IMG/VR virus record: IMGVR_UViG_3300037722_000331
Span: 1-42,056 of that record
Length of the DNA stretch: 42,056 nt
Strand: one strand, 5' to 3'
Origin: a virus
Lineage: Duplodnaviria > Caudoviricetes
Under the pieces are notes generated by a model. The model was not told where the DNA came from. It made no database searches and was given only the letters and a program-made list of their open reading frames with translations. The translations under genes and the position numbers were made by a program. Positions 4,026 through 35,756 of this stretch are shown piece by piece (position 1 is the first letter of the stretch; every line of letters begins with the position of its first letter).

Positions 4026-4838
4026 ATGACTAAGCGACGTACTGCAATCATCGATGCCGATAGTGTCCTCTATTCTATTGCGGCCATGGCGGAAGTCAGG
4101 GTCGATGAGAATGAATGGCTGCCATTGATACCGCCCGAAAAGGCGTTGGATCAGGTAGTCTTTATGATTGAGTCTCTGACGAACGAAGCGGGATGTGATC
4201 GAGCCCTTGTCGTGCTTTCAGACCATCGCAACTTTCGCAAAGTTCTTTATCCCGCTTATAAGAGCAACAGGAAAGACGCCAGACGGCCGACCATTCTTGG
4301 GGAATTGAGAGCACTCGTAATGGGGGCTGATAAAGGCTATGGAAAATTAATCATTCCCTGGCTTGAAGCCGACGATGTGTGTGGTATTTCCTATGGCCTT
4401 CTCGCGGAAAAGGGTATGGAGTCTGTGATCGTTTCGCAAGACAAGGATATGTGTTCGATCCCTTGTCTGCTGTACAATCCCAGGCCCAATGCATTCACAG
4501 GGAGCAGACGCCCCGTCGAGACTATTAGCGAAGCATCTGCGGACAGATTTCATCTCATGCAGACGCTTTCGGGAGACGCTGTAGATGGCTATCCTGGGTG
4601 CCCCGGAATAGGCTTTGTGAAGGCGAATAAAATACTCGAAGGATATAATAATGCAGAGGCCGTGGATGCTGGAGTCACTGGCGCTGAAGCCTGGAAAAGG
4701 GTGGTTGCTGCCTATGTGGAGAAGGGCCTCACCGAGCAGGATGCCCTGTTGCAGGCCCGCGTGGCTCGGATATTGAGATCGAAAGATTGGGATGCGGTCA
4801 ACAAGAAAGTCAAGCAATGGGAGCCTGAGCGTGACTGA
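4026..4838 (+). CDS. 5'-3' exonuclease (T7 gp6-like)
   Basis: IIDADS, NFRK..YPAYKSNRK, LEADD, SQDKD, GDAVDGYPGCPGIG. Confidence 0.95.
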   Translation: MTKRRTAIIDADSVLYSIAAMAEVRVDENEWLPLIPPEKALDQVVFMIESLTNEAGCDRALVVLSDHRNFRKVLYPAYKSNRKDARRPTILGELRALVMGADKGYGKLIIPWLEADDVCGISYGLLAEKGMESVIVSQDKDMCSIPCLLYNPRPNAFTGSRRPVETISEASADRFHLMQTLSGDAVDGYPGCPGIGFVKANKILEGYNNAEAVDAGVTGAEAWKRVVAAYVEKGLTEQDALLQARVARILRSKDWDAVNKKVKQWEPERD

Positions 4839-5238
4839 GGAGCTTAAAGACACCAATCCAAAAACCCGCTTCGGTAAAGCTAAACCCCCCTTGGAGCTTA
4901 CCCTATCGACAGCGCTTCTTCATATGGCAAAGGCTCAGCAATCCGGCGATTTGAGATATGGGCGCATGAACTGGCGCACTGATCCAGTCACTGCCTCGAT
5001 CTATGTGGGAGCGCTTCTGCGCCATACCCTGAAGTGGTGGTCAGGCGGTATCGATTTCGATCCTGAGTCCGGTGCGCACGAACTTGGACACGTGATGAAT
5101 AACGCGGCGATTTTACTTGACGCGAGGGACAATCATACGTTAATAGATGATAGACCTCCTCCCAATCCGCGTATCCTGGAATTGATCGCACAGCTAACAG
5201 AGGCTTTGGAAGCAGATGACAATCAACCGAAGAGATAA
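4831..5238 (+). CDS. dATP/dGTP diphosphohydrolase-like (DUF5664-type) protein
   Basis: TNPK..FG..KPPL, G..RYGRMNWR, ALLRH, DPESGAHELGH, LIDDRP pattern. GTG 4831 follows a GGAG. Confidence 0.7.
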   Translation: MTEELKDTNPKTRFGKAKPPLELTLSTALLHMAKAQQSGDLRYGRMNWRTDPVTASIYVGALLRHTLKWWSGGIDFDPESGAHELGHVMNNAAILLDARDNHTLIDDRPPPNPRILELIAQLTEALEADDNQPKR

Positions 5239-5821: not shown

Positions 5822-7429
5822 ATGACTGACCACCTTCTAACAGGCGCGTCCACCGCCGCCGGCCGATATAAAAAGCTGTCCTCTGATCGAGAGCCGTTTC
5901 TTCAGCGCGCCCGTAGGCAGGCTTCATTGACGCTCACTTCGCTATTCCGTAACATCGGAGACAACGGATTTACGGATCATGCTGTCGCCTGGAATAGTTT
6001 TGGCGCGTATGCCGTCAATAACCTATCGAACAAAGTCATCCTGTCCCTGTTCCCTGCCGGCGTGCCCTGGATAAAGCTTCGGCAATCCCGACAGGGGCTG
6101 GCGGATTTAGCTGAGTTGCCCCCTGAGATAGCCGGACAATTAAGGGCTGAGATCGCCGCTGCTCTGTCGATTGTGGAGCAGGATTTCACTGAGGAGGTAG
6201 AAGTCGATGGTGATAGGTTCCGTCTATTCACGGCCGTGAAGCGCCTTCTTGTCGGGGGCAATCACGCTCTCAGGTTCTTGAAGAATGGCAAGGTAGCGGG
6301 TATTCCTCTGGAGCGTTATGTGACGCTTCGAGCCCCCGATGGCACACTCGTAGAATGGGTGATTGAGTCGGCTATTGACTTTGAACATCTTCCAGAGGAC
6401 GTGCAACGGGTAGCTCAGGAAAAGGGACACAAGGGTCGCAGTCAGTTCAAGCCGGCCGACATCATCAAGGTCTACACACACGGCTATTTCAATGACGGTC
6501 AGTGGATAGTGTACGATGAGGTCGAAGGCGAGAAGGTTGCTGACTCTGAAGCGAAGTTCGATCCCGATACCCTGCCTTGGATGTTCTTGCGCTGGACCGG
6601 GCTCGAAGAAGAGCACTATGGTCGCTCCTATGCAGAAGACTATGAAGCCGACCTACAGACTGTGGACGGTATCACACAGATCGTTCAGGAAGGCTCTGCG
6701 GCGGCTGCGCTGTTCATTAGGCTGGTCAGTCCCAATGGCGTCACGAACAAGCGGGCTATTGAACAGGCTCAGAATGGGGCCGTTATCACGGGCGAGCAGC
6801 AAGATGTCTCCACTCTACAGGGAGATAAGGGTTCCGATTTCCAGGGGGCTCTCACTGTAGAGGATCGTGCCCTCGCCCGGCTTTCCCGCGCCTTCCTACT
6901 AAACTCGGCTGTCCAGCGCTCCGGCGAACGGGTCACTGCCGAAGAGATCAGGTTCGTTGCTCGCGAGCTTGAGGATCAGCTAGGTGGGGCTTACTCAAAC
7001 CAGGTTGTAGAGTTTCAGCAGCCTTACGCCCGCCTCAAGCTACAAGCTCTTCAACGCCTGGATCGCATCACGCGAATGCCCAAGAATGCCGTCGATCTCG
7101 TGATTATCACCGGGTCGGCCGCTCTAGGGCGTCAGGCGGAAATTCAGCTTCTCGATGCGTTCCTTCTCGGGGGCGCTCAGGTGATCCAGGCTATCGGGCC
7201 TAACATCATCGATGAGAACGTGTACATGAAACGCCGCGCCGCCGCTTTGGGCGTTGATACCGAAGGATTGGTATTGACACCCGAACAAAGAGACGCTAGA
7301 CAACAAGAGCTGGCCCAAAGTCAGCTTAGCCAACAAATTGCGCCAGAGGTTACGAGGCAGGCTGGACAGCTTATTCAACAGCAACGCCAGCAAGCCGCAG
7401 ATCAGGCACAGACGCAAGATCAACAATAG
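5822..7429 (+). CDS. Portal / head-tail connector (gp8-like)
   Basis: 535 aa; GAYAVNNLSNK..LSLFP, EHYGRSY, QRSGERVTAEEIR, ALGR. Confidence 0.96.
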   Translation: MTDHLLTGASTAAGRYKKLSSDREPFLQRARRQASLTLTSLFRNIGDNGFTDHAVAWNSFGAYAVNNLSNKVILSLFPAGVPWIKLRQSRQGLADLAELPPEIAGQLRAEIAAALSIVEQDFTEEVEVDGDRFRLFTAVKRLLVGGNHALRFLKNGKVAGIPLERYVTLRAPDGTLVEWVIESAIDFEHLPEDVQRVAQEKGHKGRSQFKPADIIKVYTHGYFNDGQWIVYDEVEGEKVADSEAKFDPDTLPWMFLRWTGLEEEHYGRSYAEDYEADLQTVDGITQIVQEGSAAAALFIRLVSPNGVTNKRAIEQAQNGAVITGEQQDVSTLQGDKGSDFQGALTVEDRALARLSRAFLLNSAVQRSGERVTAEEIRFVARELEDQLGGAYSNQVVEFQQPYARLKLQALQRLDRITRMPKNAVDLVIITGSAALGRQAEIQLLDAFLLGGAQVIQAIGPNIIDENVYMKRRAAALGVDTEGLVLTPEQRDARQQELAQSQLSQQIAPEVTRQAGQLIQQQRQQAADQAQTQDQQ

Positions 7430-7444
7430 AGGAGTTTCAGGATC

Positions 7445-14119: not shown

Positions 14120-15754
14120 ATGAGCCAAACACGCCTCATTCCTGTTGCCGCACCCACAGGGCCCGTAGCACAGGCCGAACGGTCCAATACTGCCCTTGAT
14201 CTCGCCCAGTCGCTCAGCGGCGTCAATGCGGCCTTGCAACAATTCTCAGGACCTTTGATCGCTCAGAAGCAACAAGAACAAGCAACCAAGGGGCGAGCCG
14301 CCGCTCAGTCCGCACAGGGATTGGCGTTTGCCGATGCAGTACGGGACGGCAGGATTAAACCTACCCAAAACCCCTTCTTCATTAGCGCCTTCGATAGGGA
14401 GAGCGCGGCTATCAACGGCCGGCAATCTCTCACGCAATTGCAGATAGACTCTCTGAATTGGCCCGAGAGAAGCGATCCTGTCGCCTTTCAGCAGCGGTGG
14501 AATAAAGAGGTTTCTCAGTTATCGGCGCAGTTTACGAATGCCGATCAGATTGAGGGCTTTCAGGCTGTCAATGCAGAGGTCAGTTCTCAGGTCATCAACG
14601 GCAACACGGCTCAGGAGGCCAAGAGGATCGTTGACGCCCGTACTGCGAATGCAGGCGCGTTGATCGCTCAAAAAGTGGGAGACATCAACAGGTCTTTCGG
14701 AGGTAGCGCGCCTACGGCTGCCTTCTCGGAAGGGGTCGCGGAGCTTCGCGAAGACTTCATAAATACGGGAGGCAGCGTAGAGGAGTTCGATCAGCTATTC
14801 CTCGCTGGCGTGACCACCGCCGCGTTCTCTACGCAAAATCCCGACCTGTTCAATGCCCTCAAAGCTCCTCTTGAAGAGGGGGCCACTCCGATCTTCAATC
14901 GGCCGGGTGTTGCCGATCAGGTAGATAATGACGTGTTCAGGATCGAAAGCAATCATCGTCGCAAACTTACTGAGGGAGAGGAACTGGACAACATTCAATT
15001 ACGCCAAAGGGGCAGACAGGCCAAGGATACAATATTGACTTCCTTTGGCAAGCGCTTCCTCATCGGAGAAATCGGCCCAGACCAGGTTATCGCTGACCTC
15101 GAAAGCAAGGGGTTTTCTGCCCCCGAGATTGGCGTTGCTCTCCAGGAACTACAGAATATCTTCGCGGCAAGCAATGCGTGGTCCCGAGCTATCACGGGGA
15201 CAGGCGACGGAGGCGATGCTCAAAGCTTTGATCTGTTCCTCGACGCCTCTCAAAATGGGAGCAGCGATGCGCTTACGGAGAGCGTGAGGAGAGAACTTGC
15301 CGCTGGCACAATAGCGGCCACAGACGCGAGAACCATCATCAACGAGGCCCAGCAGGCTGATGAACGGCTTGGAAAAGCGCCTACGTTGAACGGGGCTACT
15401 GTGATCGACTCGCAGACTACGCTCAATAATCGATTAAAAGATATATCCGTGCTAGGTCTGAGAGAGACAGATGAGATACGCGAGAGATTTGCAGGGGTTG
15501 CTACACAAAAGGGGATAACCATACCATTCTTTGACGACGCGCTACTCCAAGATCGTATTCAAGCCTCAGCGGCTGCTGTGATGGCAGGAGATAAGCCTTC
15601 GTTCACGGACGCATTCAATGCCGCAAGGGCTGAAGAAGCTGTGGCCGTGAAGGAATACATTGACCAGTTGATAGCTTTGGGTATAGTAGCTCCAAGACAG
15701 CCTTCCTCGCTTTCACCTGTTGCTCCAGTTAGCACCCGATTGAGGCCCAGATAA
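14120..15754 (+). CDS. Internal virion protein (gp15-like)
   Basis: Synteny; LAQSLSGVN..L N-terminus; helical composition. Confidence 0.7.
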   Translation: MSQTRLIPVAAPTGPVAQAERSNTALDLAQSLSGVNAALQQFSGPLIAQKQQEQATKGRAAAQSAQGLAFADAVRDGRIKPTQNPFFISAFDRESAAINGRQSLTQLQIDSLNWPERSDPVAFQQRWNKEVSQLSAQFTNADQIEGFQAVNAEVSSQVINGNTAQEAKRIVDARTANAGALIAQKVGDINRSFGGSAPTAAFSEGVAELREDFINTGGSVEEFDQLFLAGVTTAAFSTQNPDLFNALKAPLEEGATPIFNRPGVADQVDNDVFRIESNHRRKLTEGEELDNIQLRQRGRQAKDTILTSFGKRFLIGEIGPDQVIADLESKGFSAPEIGVALQELQNIFAASNAWSRAITGTGDGGDAQSFDLFLDASQNGSSDALTESVRRELAAGTIAATDARTIINEAQQADERLGKAPTLNGATVIDSQTTLNNRLKDISVLGLRETDEIRERFAGVATQKGITIPFFDDALLQDRIQASAAAVMAGDKPSFTDAFNAARAEEAVAVKEYIDQLIALGIVAPRQPSSLSPVAPVSTRLRPR

Positions 15755-27207: not shown

Positions 27208-27413
27208 TGCCAAGCGGCAAATATGGCAGCATTTCGTGGTCAATTCACGGGGTGCCGAAGGGTTCTGCATTCAAGCAGACTCTGCGGGCCAGGGTAAGAA
27301 ATCGTGAAGTGACGATCCCTTTGCTCGATCCGTGGGCTTTGATGTCGGATGAGCAACGCATCCACACCCTTGAGGCTGTAAAGGCCAGTCTATGCCCACG
27401 CGAACCGCGATAA
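27207..27413 (+). CDS. Hypothetical protein
   Basis: TAATG coupling at 27207. Confidence 0.5.
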   Translation: MPSGKYGSISWSIHGVPKGSAFKQTLRARVRNREVTIPLLDPWALMSDEQRIHTLEAVKASLCPREPR

Positions 27414-27853
27414 CCATCAAGAGAACCGATAATGCGGCGCTTGTTCATCATCTCCACGAGAAGATATTCAAGATGGGGGCGGATTGGGAGACCGCCGATG
27501 CTTACTGGCTGGCGCTGGATCGCAGCAGAGAGGATAGCGCCGAGATCGGCTTTGCGGCTGCCCAGTATCTGCCACTGAGCCTGGAGACGGATTATGACCA
27601 ACCTGCGGTGTTCCTGCACAGGGTTGGAGTCTTTCCTGAGTACGCCGGCAAGGGTATACAGAGGCGGTTGATCCTGGCGAGGGAACGGTGGGCGATGAGG
27701 CAGGGTGCTACACTTGTAGTAACCTATGCGAGCCGTCATAACGAGCCCTCTATTGCGAACCTCTTAAGGATGGGCTATAGGTTTGCGGAGCCGTGGATAG
27801 GCTACTCGGCCAAGGAATGGGTGTTCTTTACGAAGGAGTTGGAGCATGTGTAA
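27392..27853 (+). CDS. GNAT acetyltransferase
   Basis: FLHRVGVFPEYAGKGIQRRL (motif A); N.PSIANLLRMGY (motif B). Confidence 0.88.
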   Translation: MPTRTAITIKRTDNAALVHHLHEKIFKMGADWETADAYWLALDRSREDSAEIGFAAAQYLPLSLETDYDQPAVFLHRVGVFPEYAGKGIQRRLILARERWAMRQGATLVVTYASRHNEPSIANLLRMGYRFAEPWIGYSAKEWVFFTKELEHV

Positions 27854-27998: not shown

Positions 27999-28358
27999 CC
28001 TGAACAGCAAATTTTCTGGCCCATATCTCACACCCTGATATGTAGGGAGGAGGCAGCCCCCGCCCCCCTCGCCCCCTCGCGATCCTTATAGGGGGCCAGA
28101 TACGGCCTATTTCGCAGCGAGCGAGGCCGAGCTATCCCTAAGCCATTGATCTTGCTCATACATTCTAGCATTAGCGCTTAATCCTTATTAAACGCGGGGC
28201 GCTTAGTCTCTCTTTTTCAAAACCCTAGTTGGCGACTAGGGTATGCTACACTTGTAATACGTCCATCACTGCGTGGGCGTTTGTATTTTTTCTTTTGAGC
28301 CTATTGACAACGCCTAAGCGGGCCTATATATCAGGCGGGAAGCAAGAGGAAACCGACC
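27999..28358. other. Inferred physical genome end / terminal repeat region
   Basis: Non-coding gap between the post-terL genes and the early promoter; C-runs, palindrome ACCCTAGT-5-ACTAGGGT (28222-28242), T-rich tract. Confidence 0.65.
28304..28332 (+). promoter_or_regulatory. Sigma70-type early promoter
   Basis: TTGACA-N17-TATATC, T-rich UP-like tract upstream, GAGGA SD and ATG 28359 downstream. Confidence 0.75.
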
Positions 28359-28577
28359 ATGACCAAGTACGACATTCACTTTGCAGACGGGCGTGACGGC
28401 GAAACCAGCCTAAAACCTCTTTCGCGCGCCGCCGATGAATGGTTAAATGAACGCTTTGCGGTCATCACGTATGACCTAACGCGGGATCAAATGCTGGCGA
28501 TTGCGGCCGAAGCTTATAAAGCGGGTTTTAGAGTTAGAGGCGCGGGTCTCGCGATCCGCCGTTGCAGAAACCACTAG
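28359..28577 (+). CDS. First early gene, hypothetical
   Basis: GAGGA SD; ends 4 nt before repeat R1. Confidence 0.7.
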   Translation: MTKYDIHFADGRDGETSLKPLSRAADEWLNERFAVITYDLTRDQMLAIAAEAYKAGFRVRGAGLAIRRCRNH

Positions 28578-28581
28578 CCAA

Positions 28582-28630
28582 GTGACCGACTTACAGGGGA
28601 TCAATCATAGGTCCCTTGTTTGGCGATCAC
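28582..28630 (+). repeat. Structured intergenic repeat R1
   Basis: GTGA CCGA CTT ACAGGGGATC aatcata GGTCCCTTGT TTGG CGA TCAC. Confidence 0.95.
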
Positions 28631-28666
28631 GCCACAAAGAGCCACAAAGAAAGGAACACACGCGCA

Positions 28667-29140
28667 ATGAAAATCACCAATGATCTATTGCAAGCTAAGA
28701 ACCCTTGGAACCCTTGTGAAAGCGGGCTTGCCGCGTTTAATGCGGAATACCCAGACGGATTAGAATTGTCGGATTGGACCCTTGAACGCCAACTTACTCT
28801 TTTGAAAACGTCAAAGGTCTGCCGTCTCTATTTTGGGTGGGCGGTAAAGGTAGGCATAATTCCGGCATGGTCAATGGCTAGAGTAGACCTTAGCAATATT
28901 GACCTTAGCGGTGCGAACCTTAGCAGGGCGGACCTTAGCGGGGCGGACCTTAACATGGCGAACCTTAGCGGTGCGAACCTTAGCAGGGCGGACCTTAGCG
29001 ATGCGAACCTTATCGGGGCGAACCTTAGCGATGCGAACCTTATCGGGGCAAACCTTATCGAGGCGGACCTTAGCAGGGCGAACCTTAGCGGTGTGCGCCT
29101 TAGCGATGCGAACCTTATCGGGGCGGACCTTAGCGCTTAG
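28667..29140 (+). CDS. Pentapeptide repeat protein
   Basis: About 17 A(N/D)L(S/I)x repeats after an N-terminal domain; AAAGGA SD before ATG 28667. Confidence 0.93.
28884..29137 (+). repeat. 15-bp degenerate tandem repeats coding the pentapeptides
   Basis: Unit gcg(a/g)acctta(g/t)cnnn repeated. Confidence 0.9.
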
Positions 29141-29185
29141 TGACCAATTTTCAGGGGATCATCAGGTCCCCTGCTTGGTGTTCAC
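29140..29185 (+). repeat. Structured intergenic repeat R2 (most diverged)
   Basis: GTGA CCAA TTTT CAGGGGATC atca GGTCCCCTG C TTGG TGT TCAC. Confidence 0.92.
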
Positions 29186-29205
29186 ACGAAAAAAGGAGAC
29201 AAGAT

Positions 29206-29427
29206 ATGACAACCTTCGGTAAAAGAGTAGCGCGCCTCGCCCGCGATGCCAGACGTGACGCAATGTCGGATATTGCAGAAATTGAGCGGCGGGTTTATAT
29301 GGACGCCTTCGCGCGCTGCAAGCCTATCTCAATCGTGCCTTATGATCTTGCAAAAGCCGCCGCGCAAGTGACACCTAGGCATGATGTAGCGCAGCGGGCC
29401 GTCGTCGCAATACGCAAATCAAAGTGA
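29206..29427 (+). CDS. Early hypothetical protein (73 aa)
   Basis: AAGGAG SD; its TGA stop is supplied by R3. Confidence 0.75.
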   Translation: MTTFGKRVARLARDARRDAMSDIAEIERRVYMDAFARCKPISIVPYDLAKAAAQVTPRHDVAQRAVVAIRKSK

Positions 29428-29473
29428 CCGGCTTACAGGGGATCAATAGCATGGTCCCTTGTTTGGTGCTCAC
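29424..29473 (+). repeat. Structured intergenic repeat R3
   Basis: GTGA CCGG CTT ACAGGGGATC aatagcat GGTCCCTTGT TTGG TGC TCAC. Confidence 0.95.
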
Positions 29474-29484
29474 AAGAGAGGATA

Positions 29485-29739
29485 ATGACCATGACAACGC
29501 GAACACAAGATCAAGAAGAGGCGGATTTTTACGAGGCGCACGCACTCCTGACCAGTCTGTCGAAAGAGCAATTAGTCGCCTTAGCGATTGTAAAATGGGG
29601 CGAGAAACATGGGCCAGAAGGCACGGCCCCGCGCGACCACGCCGACAAAATTAACAGACAACTAGCGCGCGAGTGCTCTAAAAACGAATTGATTTTAGAA
29701 TTGTCAGCCTATTTAGCGCATGGCGAACTCATAAAGTGA
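29485..29739 (+). CDS. Early hypothetical protein
   Basis: GAGGA SD (start 29485 or 29491); its TGA stop is supplied by R4. Confidence 0.75.
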   Translation: MTMTTRTQDQEEADFYEAHALLTSLSKEQLVALAIVKWGEKHGPEGTAPRDHADKINRQLARECSKNELILELSAYLAHGELIK

Positions 29740-29783
29740 CCGGCTTACAGGGGATCATTCAAGGTCCCTTGTTTGGCGATCAT
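29736..29783 (+). repeat. Structured intergenic repeat R4
   Basis: GTGA CCGG CTT ACAGGGGATC attcaa GGTCCCTTGT TTGG CGA TCAT. Confidence 0.95.
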
Positions 29784-29806
29784 GCCACGAAGAAAGGGAC
29801 TATACC

Positions 29807-30163
29807 ATGATAGAGAAGCCTGTCTTAGACCTTATCATCGCCCGCGCCGTCCTTCCAGAAGTATTCGGAAAAAGCGAGGGAGATGATCCACACCTTTTAC
29901 TGCAAACCCGCTTAGCTAAGCACTTTAATGGGTGGACCGGGTGGCCTTCCGTTGGCGGGTGGCGGAACGGCGAAGGGGAAATTGAGACGGAACAAAGCCG
30001 CACCTACGAGGTGGCCATTTCCATACACGACAGAAACGTCTTCCGGGATATTATCGCCCAATGGGGACACGCCTACGGACAAGAAAGCGTTTATGTCGTG
30101 GTGGACGGCAAGGCTAATCTCCTCCCTACGAAAGACCGGGACTACTCAGTGGTCCGTGACTAA
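29807..30163 (+). CDS. DUF3574 / SAM-lyase-like (PII-fold) early protein
   Basis: F.GWT....GGW...GE...E.S...V...YGQESVYV pattern. Confidence 0.5.
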   Translation: MIEKPVLDLIIARAVLPEVFGKSEGDDPHLLLQTRLAKHFNGWTGWPSVGGWRNGEGEIETEQSRTYEVAISIHDRNVFRDIIAQWGHAYGQESVYVVVDGKANLLPTKDRDYSVVRD

Positions 30164-30213
30164 GTGACCGGCTTACAGGGGATCGATAACATGGTCCCCT
30201 GTTTGGTGATCAC
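30164..30213 (+). repeat. Structured intergenic repeat R5
   Basis: GTGA CCGG CTT ACAGGGGATC gataacat GGTCCCCTGT TTGG TGA TCAC. Confidence 0.95.
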
Positions 30214-30624: not shown

Positions 30625-30967
30625 GATTAAAAAATGCGAAGACATGGTGCATCTGGTATATACGGGGCCGGGTGCTAGGTGCGCTATGATCGCAAAAGGC
30701 CCGGCCAAGGTGCGCCCCTTCATGGAGAACGCCGTCAGGGAGTTCTCAAAGCAACAGCCCTCTCGCGACAAAGGGGGCTATATCACTCGGCGAGTATTCG
30801 AAGAGGCGATAGCATGGGTTCTGGTATTCGGCGGTTCGTCCCTTAAGGCCAAACAATTGCAGGATGTTCAGGCGGGGCGGGAGATTAATTTGACGCGAAC
30901 CTGTCAAGGCGATAAGGTCGGCGATAGAGTTCGCGCAACATGGAGAAAGGCGCATGGCTATGAATAG
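30611..30967 (+). CDS. Hypothetical protein
   Basis: GGGAG SD; overlapping gene chain. Confidence 0.6.
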   Translation: MTRLEIKKCEDMVHLVYTGPGARCAMIAKGPAKVRPFMENAVREFSKQQPSRDKGGYITRRVFEEAIAWVLVFGGSSLKAKQLQDVQAGREINLTRTCQGDKVGDRVRATWRKAHGYE

Positions 30968-31856: not shown

Positions 31857-31943
31857 ATGTCAGTAACCTATGAGGAATTAGACGCGATCCGCGCCCGGTA
31901 CGGTAGTACCAAATGCTGGAGGAGAATGGACGATGAAGAATGA
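31857..31943 (+). CDS. 28-aa peptide
   Basis: GGAGG SD; fills the gap up to the recombinase. Confidence 0.45.
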   Translation: MSVTYEELDAIRARYGSTKCWRRMDDEE

Positions 31944-32763
31944 CACCCTATCCCCTTGGTTAGCCTTTGGGCTTGACTTTTATCAAGATAGCCCTACAAG
32001 GCTCGCAGCGCTTCACTGGTGCGCGTCTTCTGGCGAGCTACCTGCCTACCTAGAAACCCTAAGACCGCACCACGGGGCTAGGTTGCGCCATGCTATGGGC
32101 TATCTATCGCCGGCAACTCAACGGCTCTACTATCAAACCTTCCTAGGCGTTCTGAAGGCGGCGCGGATCGACTTGCAAGGTTGGCCTAAAGCTCCCAGAG
32201 TCCCCAACATCAAGCGCCGTGATCCGCTCGAAGAGGACGATCTACAAAATGTCCTTAATTGGCTCAGGGGGCGAAAATGGCATAGGACGGCGGCGCTAGG
32301 CTATTTGCTCAGACATACAGGTATGCGGGCTGACAAGGAAGCCCTCCACTCGGCCCTTCACATATCGAGGATCACGCCCGCAGAGGGCAAGCCCTACGTG
32401 CTGCTTGAGATTGACAAGGGCAAAGGGGACGATTATAGGGCCGTGCCTGTCACAGACCCTACGGCGGCAAGCATCCTGGCAAATTCCGAGGTGATGCACC
32501 ATATCAGGCAGACACCTTATTCGACGCATCGGCAGCGTTGGAAGATGGCGGTTGACACGCTTGGAATTAAGTCTAAGCTGCCAACGCTTCATTCGCTACG
32601 GCACGCTTATGCCACTGACTGTTATCGCAAGACGGGAGACCTCACCGCAGTGCAGCACCTTCTGGGACACAAAGACGTGAACACGACGACGCGGTATCTG
32701 GCAGTCAGAACGCATCAGGACCTCGCTGACGCTTTATCAGCTACCATACAGGCGATAGCATGA
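31933..32763 (+). CDS. Tyrosine recombinase / integrase (compact, Xer-like)
   Basis: Full catalytic set: TGMR, GKG..R.VP, HSLRH, LLGH....TTRY. Confidence 0.95.
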   Translation: MKNDTLSPWLAFGLDFYQDSPTRLAALHWCASSGELPAYLETLRPHHGARLRHAMGYLSPATQRLYYQTFLGVLKAARIDLQGWPKAPRVPNIKRRDPLEEDDLQNVLNWLRGRKWHRTAALGYLLRHTGMRADKEALHSALHISRITPAEGKPYVLLEIDKGKGDDYRAVPVTDPTAASILANSEVMHHIRQTPYSTHRQRWKMAVDTLGIKSKLPTLHSLRHAYATDCYRKTGDLTAVQHLLGHKDVNTTTRYLAVRTHQDLADALSATIQAIA

Positions 32764-32998: not shown

Positions 32999-33949
32999 AT
33001 GGGCGAATGCTATATAACATACCCCAATGGAGCCACCCGTGACATCAGAGACCATGTCGCCGAGAACCTTGCAATGTCAGCGGGAAGCGGATCAAAGGGA
33101 TTGTGCGATAGGAAGGAGGATGAAGAGCCTTCAGTCGGGAAATGCAAATCCGATCTTGCAGCGGTGGGTGGGAAAGTCAGTAGAGCCCTGCGCGCGAAGG
33201 ATGCGAGACGTAGCAAGGGCGTGGGCGGAAAAGGAGTGGATTACGGTTGGGGAGCTTTTGACGACGGATGTATTCGGCTTGGCATCGGCGTCTCAACATT
33301 CCCATTCGCTGACACCGTTGCTGCTCTGGTGTTTGCAGGGCTCATCAAGAGCAACTATGCAACCAGGCTCCTCTACTCCAATGTCCTTCTCGAACGACTT
33401 AATGCTTACGGCAGTGGGGTCTCTGATCTCAGGTATCGTGCTAAAGAGCGCGCGGGGGGCGGAGAGTGTAACCCTGAACTCCTGTCTATCCTCTATGAGT
33501 ATCTCACTGCGAGAAACTTTGATTGGGCAGTGGTTGACCGAGTTTCAGGGGCAGGAAACGCTGCTCGGCCTGAAAAGAGAAACCTACGCCTGGAAAAAGC
33601 TGCGACAATTATCGCATCCGAGTCGTTTGTTGATCGCACAAGTAAAGCCTCAGCTAGAGTCACAGTCCCGAGGCGAGATCGATTTGGAAGCCCTTGGACA
33701 CCGTACCATCCTCAAGGTGTTTCAGCAGGTACGGGGCGAGGAGCAGCCGCGCCAGATCAGCATGAAGGCAATACCCACAGAGAACGACTGGAAGGTCCTT
33801 TCTATCGCCCAAATGACCTTAGGCGAGGACCAGCAAAACCATGCCTTGTGGACTACGTTTTCCCTGCTCATGCTCTGTATTATTCAGAGGGAGTTGGGAT
33901 GGATCGACATCGTTTCGGGGCGGCCAACTGGGAAGCGCGCGAAGAATAA
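32999..33949 (+). CDS. Candidate overprinted gene in the RNAP N-terminal region
   Basis: 316 stop-free codons in the -1 frame; TAAGGA SD 8 nt upstream of ATG. Confidence 0.45.
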   Translation: MGECYITYPNGATRDIRDHVAENLAMSAGSGSKGLCDRKEDEEPSVGKCKSDLAAVGGKVSRALRAKDARRSKGVGGKGVDYGWGAFDDGCIRLGIGVSTFPFADTVAALVFAGLIKSNYATRLLYSNVLLERLNAYGSGVSDLRYRAKERAGGGECNPELLSILYEYLTARNFDWAVVDRVSGAGNAARPEKRNLRLEKAATIIASESFVDRTSKASARVTVPRRDRFGSPWTPYHPQGVSAGTGRGAAAPDQHEGNTHRERLEGPFYRPNDLRRGPAKPCLVDYVFPAHALYYSEGVGMDRHRFGAANWEAREE

Positions 33950-35756
33950 AGGACGGCAGCGCTATGTTATCCTGACAGAGGAAGCGGCCGTGGCAATCGG
34001 TAAAGATGCTCATGCGTGGGCTCAGATGGGATGGTATGATCAGCCTATGCTGACACCCCCTGAAAAAGGAGACTACCTGACTGTGAAACACCGCCCTATC
34101 TCCAATAGAGCCGCCCCCTCAAAGCACTCCATCACGAAAGCCGAGGAGTCGTGGCAATGGGAGACTGCTTGCGATGTTCTCGCGAGCACACCGTGGCGCG
34201 TGAACTCCTGGGCCGTGCAAGAAGCAATGGCAAACGATAGCCTTACTCCTCGGGAGCGTGTCATCGTCGCGGATCATGCTCGCCTGGGAAATGCGCCCTT
34301 CTGGTTGCCTATAATGATGGACTTCCGGGGTCGGGTCTATCCGAGGACAGCGACGGTCAGCTATCAAGGGTCCGATCTCCAGAAATCCCTTCTTATGTTC
34401 AATCCCTTGAAGGGAGACGGTAGCCTTGCGCAGGCTCCTCTTGACGTGCAGTGGGCTGTAAAGCGTCACATGATATGCTTAGAAGGAAAATGGGATAAGA
34501 GTATAAAACAAGAACAGATACACGCGCAACATGGTATTATTTGGGAAGAGCCTCATCAGTTTTGGGCGCATAGGCGGCTTATACAGGAAGGGCTCTGGAA
34601 TAGCATCCCCATTCAAATCGATGGCACATGCAATGGCCTTCAGCACATTTCAGCGATGTTCGCCGACGAAGTAGCCGCTCCCTGCGTGAACCTTTGCAAC
34701 CACGACGCTCCTCAGGATATTTATGGCAAGGTCGCGAAAGAGGTGGAGTTCCGGCTGAATGACATCGCTTTCTGCGCCGATGCTGAAGACGGGTGGGCCG
34801 GGCGCTTGCTGCACTGTGGGGCTGACCTCGGCAGGAAGCTGATGAAGAAGCCGGTTATGACTCTGCCTTACGGGGCCACCATGAGGGGAGTCGCCGACTT
34901 TCTGCTTGAAGGACTTATTGAGCAAAAGCCGTCTCCTACGCCTTGGCGGGAATGTCTGACCTGGGACACACTGGAATGTCGGTGGGTCAGAGATAGTGTG
35001 GAGATATCCCACGATGCCCTTGCCTTCGCCGACCGCGAGCTTGCACGGCATCCACTATTCCGGGCCGATGTCAATCGCCTGTCCGCAGTGGTATGGAAAG
35101 CCATAGAGGCTACCCTGCCCCGTGCAATGGCCGCCATGAGCACTTTCAGGAAGCTGGCCGGCGGGGTCGGGGAACACGTTCTCGCGTGGGAGACGGGGCC
35201 TGAGAGCAGAAGCCTAGTTGTCAGGCAGGCCAAAGCACAGGCGTATATCAAACGGATGCGCTTGATGAGCTTGCATCTGCCCAACAGCATTAGGACATTG
35301 CAAACCCTGGTAGGCCGCGATGAGGTGGACGCGAGGTATCACCGCAACGGGATCATCGCCAACTTCATTCACTCGCAGGATGCCGACCATATGGCGAGGA
35401 CCATGCGTCTGTTCCGTAAGCATGGGGGCACCTGCTTTGGGGCCGCGCACGACTGCTTCTCTGCAAGGGCCATGGAGATACCCATCCTGCATTGGGCTAC
35501 CCGTATGGCGTTCCTGGAGAAGTACGCTGGCGAACCGACTAAGGGGGATCGTAGAGACGCCGCTCTCCTTGGCGAACCGGCCAATCCCAATCATCCTCTT
35601 AACCAGAGAATTTCCATCCTCGATCACCGCACGGGGGCCATAGTCTCCGAATACGACAACTGGTACCGCTTCGCGGACGCCATGAAGGTATCCTTCCCGG
35701 ACAGGGGGAGCTTCGATCTCAAGGAGGTGCTCGGCAGTGAGTGGTTCTTCTCATAA
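33027..35756 (+). CDS. Single-subunit DNA-dependent RNA polymerase (T7 gp1-like)
   Basis: PMLTPP, DFRGRVYP, motif A DGTCNGLQH, motif B RKLMKKPVMTLPYG, NFIHSQD, motif C HDCF, C-terminal WFFS. Start codon uncertain. Confidence 0.96.
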   Translation: MEPPVTSETMSPRTLQCQREADQRDCAIGRRMKSLQSGNANPILQRWVGKSVEPCARRMRDVARAWAEKEWITVGELLTTDVFGLASASQHSHSLTPLLLWCLQGSSRATMQPGSSTPMSFSNDLMLTAVGSLISGIVLKSARGAESVTLNSCLSSMSISLRETLIGQWLTEFQGQETLLGLKRETYAWKKLRQLSHPSRLLIAQVKPQLESQSRGEIDLEALGHRTILKVFQQVRGEEQPRQISMKAIPTENDWKVLSIAQMTLGEDQQNHALWTTFSLLMLCIIQRELGWIDIVSGRPTGKRAKNKGRQRYVILTEEAAVAIGKDAHAWAQMGWYDQPMLTPPEKGDYLTVKHRPISNRAAPSKHSITKAEESWQWETACDVLASTPWRVNSWAVQEAMANDSLTPRERVIVADHARLGNAPFWLPIMMDFRGRVYPRTATVSYQGSDLQKSLLMFNPLKGDGSLAQAPLDVQWAVKRHMICLEGKWDKSIKQEQIHAQHGIIWEEPHQFWAHRRLIQEGLWNSIPIQIDGTCNGLQHISAMFADEVAAPCVNLCNHDAPQDIYGKVAKEVEFRLNDIAFCADAEDGWAGRLLHCGADLGRKLMKKPVMTLPYGATMRGVADFLLEGLIEQKPSPTPWRECLTWDTLECRWVRDSVEISHDALAFADRELARHPLFRADVNRLSAVVWKAIEATLPRAMAAMSTFRKLAGGVGEHVLAWETGPESRSLVVRQAKAQAYIKRMRLMSLHLPNSIRTLQTLVGRDEVDARYHRNGIIANFIHSQDADHMARTMRLFRKHGGTCFGAAHDCFSARAMEIPILHWATRMAFLEKYAGEPTKGDRRDAALLGEPANPNHPLNQRISILDHRTGAIVSEYDNWYRFADAMKVSFPDRGSFDLKEVLGSEWFFS

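What the first reader, a model, noticed from the sequence alone, without database searches (positions are those of the whole stretch)
28582..30213. Repeats fold with bulge-helix-bulge (BHB) geometry
Seen: GUGA/UCAC outer helix, a 4-bp central helix CCRR/UUGG, a 3-nt bulge 3' of that helix on each strand (CUU and YGN), then a 10-bp inner stem (R2 is relaxed by one mismatch). Substitutions keep pairing (CCGG, CCGA, CCAA against UUGG; CCUU or CCCU; UCAC or UCAU) and rely on G-U wobble, so the fold works on the + strand, probably as RNA. Known: 3-4-3 BHB is the archaeal tRNA splicing endonuclease substrate, and bacteria lack that enzyme. Inference: either an atypical RNase III site or the target of an unidentified host or phage protein.
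Basis: partly seen in the sequence, partly recalled or inferred. Interest (0 to 1): 0.75.

Follow-up and report, generated by a model that had tools for sequence, protein, structure and literature searches.

The report
T7-type RNase III sites, not BHB
Five near-identical hairpins sit between the early genes of an uncultured T7-like bacterial virus and closely resemble the signals at which the host enzyme RNase III cuts phage T7's early message, so they likely do the same familiar job, and the archaeal-looking bulge-helix-bulge drawing is likely a side effect of their sequence.

Summary
The five repeats are real, and each can be drawn as a 3-4-3 bulge-helix-bulge (BHB; R2 relaxed). BHB is not the lowest-energy fold of any copy; a symmetric irregular helix wins by 2-6 kcal/mol in four, and R2 is mixed. 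The window is a complete T7-like phage; a syntenic relative is a prophage in a Novosphingobium genome that has RNase III and no match to the splicing endonuclease. Each hairpin lies between a stop codon and the next ribosome-binding site of the early operon. In register, four copies match the T7/T3 RNase III site R1 at 11 of 13 bases on the 5' arm and carry its proximal- and distal-box pairs, apart from G-U for G-C at one pair. Hairpins at the same kind of position in related phages, including a second five-copy array, keep symmetric pairing and reach only 0-3 of 4 BHB pairs. Verdict: likely T7-type RNase III processing signals, a new member of a known kind; cleavage is untested (no RNA data). 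This scan reported similar arrays on other phage DNA. A minor BHB conformer that lets RNase III bind without cutting is not excluded (about 10%).

The parts
28259..28280 (+). Terminator-like hairpin with U-tract that would separate the late genes from the early operon
   Evidence: consensus scan, (11 found against 5.4 in shuffles; function inferred)
28304..28332 (+). Likely host sigma-70-type promoter: TTGACA, 17 nt, TATATC
   Evidence: read from sequence; not listed by the scanner, which demands T at the last -10 position; inferred
28359..28577 (+). Early ORF, 72 aa, no family; stop TAG 4 nt before repeat 1
28582..28630 (+). Repeat R1, RNA stem-loop; predicted RNase III cuts 28592|28593 and 28621|28622
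   Evidence: cut positions inferred from the T7 R1.1 register
28667..29140 (+). Pentapeptide-repeat protein gene, 157 aa; its stop overlaps the first base of R2
   Evidence: Pfam PF00805 E 7e-39
29140..29185 (+). Repeat R2, most divergent copy and the only one where BHB-type central pairs are competitive under all four energy sets; predicted cuts 29150|29151 and 29176|29177
29206..29427 (+). Early ORF, 73 aa, no family; stop TGA lies inside the outer helix of R3
29424..29473 (+). Repeat R3; predicted cuts 29434|29435 and 29464|29465
29485..29739 (+). Early ORF, 84 aa, no family; stop TGA lies inside the outer helix of R4
29736..29783 (+). Repeat R4; predicted cuts 29746|29747 and 29774|29775
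29807..30163 (+). Early ORF, 118 aa (weak DUF3574 hit below cut-off); stop TAA abuts R5
30164..30213 (+). Repeat R5; predicted cuts 30174|30175 and 30204|30205; followed by an SD-like AGAAAGGA and ATG 30238
31933..32763 (+). Tyrosine recombinase (context; far below the integron-integrase cut-off)
33027..35756 (+). T7-type single-subunit RNA polymerase that follows the early region (context)

Best explanation
The five repeats are RNA stem-loops between the early genes of a T7-like bacteriophage and are likely processing signals for the host's RNase III, as in T7/T3 (R0.3-R1.3). Host RNA polymerase would read from the promoter at 28304-28332 through the small genes towards the phage RNA polymerase. 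After each stop codon the RNA is predicted to fold into a 21-position helix: a 10-bp upper stem carrying the RNase III proximal and distal boxes, two U.U mismatches at the predicted scissile positions, and an irregular lower stem. RNase III would cut at CUU|ACAG and/or UGUUU|GG. The mismatches suggest a single nick on the 3' side, which would leave a protective 3' hairpin on the upstream message and a new 5' end 29-45 nt before the next start codon. Shown: sequence, position, likeness to T7/T3 sites, symmetric pairing in relatives. Inferred: the fold, cleavage, which strand is cut, and the effect on stability or translation.
For: (1) Context: complete phage with T7-type RNA polymerase, DNA polymerase, primase-helicase, portal, capsid and tail; 5 of 5 repeats lie stop-hairpin-SD-ATG. 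T7 has five RNase III signals in its early polycistronic RNA (PMC3867540, passage); T3 has five annotated early sites of 40-54 nt. (2) Sequence: 11 of 13 identity to the 5' arm of T7 and T3 R1 for R1, R3, R4, R5 (9 of 13 for R2) and 6-7 of 10 on the 3' arm; the main differences are two swapped pairs that stay paired. These four are the only 13-mers on the window's + strand that reach 11 of 13; rough post hoc chance 3e-4. (3) Box rules of PMC1540722 (Discussion part 1): pb2 A-U in 5 of 5, db2 U-G in 5 of 5, pb4 A-U in 4 of 5, pb1 G-C in 2 and G-U in 3; the departures at pb3 and db1 are the ones T7/T3 R1 also have. (4) Fold: same architecture as T7 R1.1 and R0.3. (5) Relatives: stop-hairpin-SD stems in L170, L009, L011, L018 and a five-copy array of different sequence in L172. 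In alignment A3 the three symmetric central pairs hold in 27 of 27 cells with 9 both-sides changes; the BHB helix holds in 23 of 36 with none. (6) A syntenic relative is a prophage beside tRNA-Trp in a Novosphingobium chromosome whose genome has RNase III.
Against: No RNA data, so no cut is shown. The lower half-site departs from E. coli preferences: pb2 is U-A only in R2, and pb4 is G-C in 4 of 5 copies, a pair that blocked catalysis in a model substrate (PMC1540722, passage). In vivo double-cut E. coli sites are paired between the cuts in about 90% of cases (PMC6212723, passage), whereas these have U.U. With 150 nt of flank each side the outer helix has only 0.10-0.83 probability, though the upper stem stays at 0.86-1.0. 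The four non-window rows of A3 were chosen partly for symmetric pairing, so their covariation is partly by construction, and a tight symmetric descriptor found 3 non-window hits against 5 in resampled DNA: context, not count, supports them. The closest relative (L170) has one such hairpin, not five. The actual host is unknown and its RNase III preferences are untested.
Confidence: 0.8

Rival explanations
1. Two-state RNase III site: the lower stem slides between the symmetric register (cleavable) and the BHB register (bound but not cut), which tunes how often each junction is processed.
For: BHB pairing is kept in 5 of 5 copies. R2 holds BHB-type pairs at 0.19-0.79 under all four energy sets at two temperatures, and R3 and R5 reach 0.28-0.44 with Andronescu 2007. 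PMC1540722 (passage) reports a bulge-helix-bulge motif, selected in vitro from T7 R1.1, that lets E. coli RNase III bind but not cut.
Against: R1 and R4 stay at 0.02 or less under every set. No relative's stop-hairpin-SD stem allows 4 of 4 BHB pairs. Given the symmetric motif with tandem U.U, a drawable BHB arises by chance in 8-18% of simulated sites, and five near-identical copies count as about one observation. The geometry of the published motif could not be read.
Confidence: 0.08
2. Uncleaved structural punctuation: the hairpins act as weak terminators, 3' stabilisers or translational insulators without being cut.
For: Strong G-C-rich upper stem right after each stop codon and followed by UUU; R2 is listed as terminator-like. 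The mismatches at the scissile positions could block cutting.
Against: Only 1 of 5 passes the terminator scan. It does not explain the match to T7/T3 R1 at the box positions or the 21-position length.
Confidence: 0.08
3. True BHB substrate of an EndA-like nuclease from host or phage, giving spliced or circular products.
For: Geometry matches the definition, a 4-bp helix with two 3-nt bulges (PMC4090602, passage), in 4 of 5 copies strictly.
Against: No PF01974 match in the phage or in the two bacterial genomes holding clade members (both may be incomplete; 4 of 4 archaeal controls positive). No splicing-endonuclease or RtcB family among 39 mostly unassigned ORFs. BHB is not the preferred fold and is not conserved.
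Confidence: 0.01
4. DNA-level recombination cassettes: attC-like or homology-driven exchange of single early genes between the repeats, helped by the nearby tyrosine recombinase.
For: Direct repeats flank single small genes and begin at their stops; a recombinase lies 1.7 kb downstream; the three non-repetitive genes between repeats have no match in the fetched loci.
Against: The fold needs G-U pairs and is weak as DNA (-7 to -10 kcal/mol). The recombinase scores 43 bits against a 265-bit integron-integrase cut-off. No attC-type core box is visible (box motif recalled). This could still be a side effect that homogenises the copies.
Confidence: 0.03

Closest known systems
RNase III processing signals of the T7/T3 early transcript (R0.3, R0.5, R1, R1.1, R1.3), closest to R1
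   Same: Five sites between early genes of a T7-like phage; about 50 nt; 10-bp upper stem with the same proximal- and distal-box pairs as R1; small loop at the scissile position, then one pair, a purine.purine mismatch and a lower stem as in R1.1 and R0.3.
   Different: Loop at the cut is symmetric 2x2 U.U rather than asymmetric; the five copies are nearly identical to each other; all lie upstream of the recombinase and RNA polymerase genes; the lower stem can also be drawn as BHB, which none of the 9 T7, T3 and phiYeO3-12 sites scored allows.
Archaeal bulge-helix-bulge splice site (EndA substrate)
   Same: The sequence permits a 4-bp helix with a 3-nt bulge 3' of it on each strand, flanked by helices.
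   Different: Bacterial virus with no EndA found; register disfavoured by 2-6 kcal/mol in four copies; two G-U pairs in the central helix of three copies; not kept in relatives.
R1.1[CL3B], the in vitro-selected cleavage-resistant bulge-helix-bulge variant of T7 R1.1
   Same: A BHB-type motif within an RNase III substrate stem (PMC1540722, passages).
   Different: Artificial; its exact geometry could not be read; here BHB would be a minor conformer of a natural site.

Membership tests
T7-type early RNase III processing signal | Intergenic position in the early polycistronic region of a T7-like phage | tested here: met
   5 of 5 between stop codon and SD-ATG, upstream of the RNA polymerase gene
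T7-type early RNase III processing signal | Stem-loop of about two helical turns on the mRNA strand with irregularity at the cut | tested here: met
   21 positions (4+7+10); z -3.8 to -5.0; + strand preferred; predicted, not probed
T7-type early RNase III processing signal | Proximal- and distal-box pairs in register | tested here: met
   upper half-site: pb2 A-U 5 of 5, db2 U-G 5 of 5, same departures as T7/T3 R1; lower half-site only partly fits
T7-type early RNase III processing signal | Host encodes RNase III | tested here: inconclusive
   present in the Novosphingobium genome carrying a related prophage; the window's own host is unknown
T7-type early RNase III processing signal | rnc-dependent cleavage leaving 5'-phosphate and 3'-OH ends | not testable with these tools
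   no RNA run holds the region
Archaeal BHB splice site | 3-4-3 geometry can be drawn | tested here: met
   4 of 5 strict, R2 relaxed
Archaeal BHB splice site | BHB is the fold the RNA adopts | tested here: not met
   minimum-energy fold in 0 of 5; pair probability 0.02 or less in 4 of 5 with Turner 2004, higher for R2 and, with one energy set, R3 and R5; prediction only
Archaeal BHB splice site | BHB pairing conserved in related elements | tested here: not met
   central helix 23 of 36 cells in A3, only 3 of 16 in the four non-window rows, no both-sides change; L172 array 2-3 of 4
Archaeal BHB splice site | Splicing endonuclease available | tested here: not met
   no PF01974 in the phage or in two bacterial genomes with clade members; true host not in hand
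Integron attC cassette array | Cognate integron integrase and ssDNA hairpin | tested here: not met
   TIGR02249 43 bits against cut-off 265; DNA fold weak

The most novel reading that the evidence does not exclude
The lower stem is a natural register switch: it slides between a symmetric, RNase III-cleavable helix and a bulge-helix-bulge form that binds RNase III without being cut. Single-base differences among the five copies (R2 most BHB-prone) set how much each early junction is processed or how much RNase III the phage sequesters.
Probability: 0.1. Interest if true: 0.6.

Novelty: new member of a known kind. Interest (0 to 1): 0.2.

Why it matters
As it stands it extends the T7 way of cutting up early mRNA to an uncultured, distant clade of T7-like phages (RNA polymerase about 24-30% identical to cultured phages) with at least one alphaproteobacterial host. 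It offers a neat natural set of near-identical RNase III substrates, and shows that R1-like box sequence recurs across that distance. That is useful annotation rather than a surprise. Only if the BHB conformer proved functional would it give a natural case of RNase III binding without cleavage.

Tried and rejected
Rfam (gathering) and ARAGORN on the window: nothing. Exact repeat pattern in viral contigs: 3 hits, single copies that do not form the hairpin, two of them checked and inside coding ORFs; rejected. Covariance model of the five copies on 13 other loci, including T7: no hit outside the window, so relatives share shape and box letters rather than full sequence. Upper-stem pattern in viral contigs: 17 single hits, of which one (L270) has the same lower pattern; L270 was not shown to be T7-like. 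blastn of the region against cultured phages: only the pentapeptide gene and short chance matches. Loose descriptor over 241 loci: 66 plus-strand and 68 minus-strand hits against 38 in resampled DNA, BHB in 5 of 134 against 2 of 38; too unspecific to use as evidence. Tight descriptor: 3 non-window hits against 5 null. Register-neutral scan: 0 of 24 hairpins in 10 related regions give 4 of 4 BHB pairs, weak alone because the base rate is 2%. Energy-set comparison did not switch parameters and was redone. No RNA holder listed. Contigs of the likely source run show no joints across the repeats, which proves nothing about rare variants. Three primary papers on RNase III specificity (Calin-Jageman 2003, Krinke 1990, Zhang 1997) were not held. 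Literature searches listed no paper on BHB elements in phage mRNA or on this clade; the library lacks most subscription journals. No supplements were read.

Full report
What the window is. The 42,056 bases are a complete virus record with direct terminal repeats. PHROG matches give a T7-like gene set: primase-helicase, family A DNA polymerase, exonuclease, portal, capsid, tail tubes, terminase, and a single-subunit RNA polymerase at 33027-35756 preceded by a tyrosine recombinase at 31933-32763. Cultured phages match the polymerase at only about 24-30%, but about 110 environmental polymerases match at 32-55%. One of them lies in a full syntenic prophage that starts beside a tRNA-Trp gene in a 4.1-Mb Novosphingobium contig. 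That genome has RNase III and no match to the tRNA splicing endonuclease family; the phage has none either. The host of this clade is therefore bacterial in at least one case; the window's own host is not known.

The observation. Five repeats of 46-50 nt start at 28582, 29140, 29424, 29736 and 30164. They are far beyond chance as repeats (5 matches against 0.03) and as folds (z -3.8 to -5.0), and they fold better on the + strand as RNA in 5 of 5 cases. Every copy begins at or within 4 nt of a stop codon and ends 11-36 nt before a start codon with an SD-like sequence between. A promoter-like TTGACA-17-TATATC lies at 28304-28332, behind a terminator-like hairpin. The BHB drawing is correct as a drawing: 20 of 20 central cells pair.

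BHB or symmetric helix. The 7-by-7 region between the outer helix and the upper stem has a second reading: mismatch, two pairs, purine.G mismatch, one pair, two U.U. The five copies keep it equally well (84 of 85 cells, one both-sides change, against 89 of 90 and none), so they cannot decide alone. Folding favours the symmetric form by 2.3, 4.0, 5.9 and 4.0 kcal/mol in R1, R3, R4 and R5; R2 is within 0.4. Over four energy sets and two temperatures, R1 and R4 stay at 0.02 or less for BHB pairs, R2 ranges 0.19-0.79, and R3 and R5 are 0.06 or less except 0.28-0.44 under Andronescu 2007. With 150 nt of flank the upper stem stays firm (0.86-1.0) but the outer helix is only 0.10-0.83. A drawable BHB occurs in 2% of random 7-by-7 loops and in 8-18% of loops built to the symmetric motif with tandem U.U; the five copies amount to about one observation.

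Relatives. No near copy of the repeat exists in the viral contigs or in 13 loci searched with a covariance model. Related phages with the terminase-early-recombinase-polymerase order do carry stems in the same stop-hairpin-SD position. L170, the closest (polymerase 55%), has one at 7376-7440, and L009 one at 14612; both turned up in an unfiltered hairpin scan. L011 has one at 1529 and the more distant L018 one at 2164. A scan that placed no rule on the 7-by-7 region found 24 hairpins in 10 related regions (L018 added after it had been spotted), none with 4 of 4 BHB pairs, and revealed that L172 has its own five-copy array of different sequence, directly after stop codons, with symmetric mismatches and 2-3 of 4 BHB pairs. 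In alignment A3 (five window copies plus L009, L011, L018 and L270) the three symmetric central pairs hold in 27 of 27 cells with 9 both-sides changes, the BHB helix in 23 of 36 with none, and RNAalifold returns the symmetric structure. Caveats: L170 and L172 were left out of A3 because their mismatch pattern differs; the four rows were picked partly for symmetric pairing; and the tight descriptor is not enriched by count (3 hits against 5 null). The safe statement is that none of these positionally equivalent stems can form the BHB.

Comparison with T7 and T3. The T3 record annotates five early RNase III sites of 40-54 nt; the T7 record does not annotate them, so I took the hairpins at the matching positions. 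T7 R1.1 and R0.3 fold as upper stem, small loop, one pair, A.A mismatch, lower stem, like the window's repeats. In register, R1, R3, R4 and R5 match the 5' arm of T7 and T3 R1 at 11 of 13 bases (R2 at 9) and the 3' arm at 6-7 of 10, with the two central differences swapped as pairs. No other 13-mer on the window's + strand reaches 11 of 13; a rough post hoc chance is 3e-4. Pertzev and Nicholson (PMC1540722; passages and Discussion part 1) give the E. coli determinants as distal box UA, UG and proximal box GC, AU/UA, AU, AU/UA. I fixed the register on T7 R1.1, where it reproduces their U.C pair at pb4 and their 28-nt product; the T7 cut positions it gives also agree with those I recall from Dunn and Studier. 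The window copies have pb2 A-U and db2 U-G in 5 of 5, pb4 A-U in 4 of 5, pb1 G-C in 2 and G-U in 3, and deviate at pb3 and db1 exactly as T7/T3 R1 does. The lower half-site fits less well. None of the 9 T7, T3 and phiYeO3-12 sites that the descriptor found, out of 15 early sites, allows a full BHB.

Mechanism. Shown: position, sequence and likeness. Inferred: host polymerase makes one early transcript; each junction folds into a two-turn helix; host RNase III cuts at CUU|ACAG and/or UGUUU|GG. Loops or mismatches at the target can limit cutting to one strand and leave a stabilising 3' hairpin (PMC3867540 and PMC1540722, passages), and double-cut E. coli sites are usually paired between the cuts (PMC6212723, passages), so a single 3'-side nick is my best guess. 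T7 early RNA has five such signals (PMC3867540), and T7 grows without RNase III (PMC6938266, passage), so the benefit is probably tuning of stability and translation.

Rivals. A true EndA substrate lacks an enzyme, a preferred fold and conservation (0.01). Uncut terminators or stabilisers do not explain the box match (0.08). DNA cassettes fit poorly with G-U-dependent folding and a non-integron recombinase (0.03). The interesting remainder is a register switch: a selected bulge-helix-bulge variant of R1.1 binds E. coli RNase III without being cut (PMC1540722, passage; the primary paper was not held), and R2 is predicted to sample BHB pairs. I give that about 0.1.

Verdict. Real repeats; BHB drawable but likely incidental; likely T7-type RNase III processing signals; new member of a known kind; interest 0.2. 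Earlier notes of this scan describe similar arrays in other phages; they were read after this analysis and are not independent support. Papers seen: PMC1540722 (passages, Discussion part 1), PMC3867540, PMC6212723, PMC8708148, PMC3276506, PMC4090602, PMC6938266 (passages only).

Noticed in passing
L172:3586-5590: A related phage has its own five-copy early array of about 49-nt stem-loops of different sequence, directly after stop codons, with periodic single mismatches.
   Followed up: partly
window 31933-32763; L091:8144-8722 and 14570-14788; L013:8015-8593 and 14284-14514: The clade keeps a small tyrosine recombinase just before the RNA polymerase gene. The Novosphingobium prophage is not split at this gene but ends near a second recombinase-like gene after the polymerase, so the upstream recombinase may do something other than integration.
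   Followed up: partly
G001:C2 about 634300-676100 (L273, L271, L091): Full T7-like prophage beside tRNA-Trp in a Novosphingobium chromosome, which gives a host lead for this uncultured polymerase clade.
   Followed up: partly
window 28667-29140: Pentapeptide-repeat protein as an early gene; similar genes occur in Ralstonia phages and in L010. Possibly a DNA mimic; hits to Qnr, MfpA and PipB models are far below cut-off.
   Followed up: no
window 27392-27853: GNAT acetyltransferase after the terminase, shared only with L170 among the fetched loci.
   Followed up: no
window 4792-5238: dATP/dGTP diphosphohydrolase domain (PF18909), a hint of nucleotide-pool editing or modified DNA.
   Followed up: no
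window 28304-28332; L170:6335-6362: Early promoters lack the last T of the -10 box (TTGACA-17-TATATC; CTTGAC-17-CTATCT), as recalled for alphaproteobacterial housekeeping promoters.
   Followed up: no
window 30635-30695: A further long stable hairpin (-31.6 kcal/mol) inside the 118-aa early ORF, unrelated to the repeats.
   Followed up: no
L090:3919-3990, 4747-4810, 6498-6550: Three similar long hairpins in the early region of another clade member.
   Followed up: no
L270:2488-2539 (- strand): Single hairpin with the window's upper stem and the same symmetric lower pattern between small genes of a phage not shown to be T7-like.
   Followed up: partly
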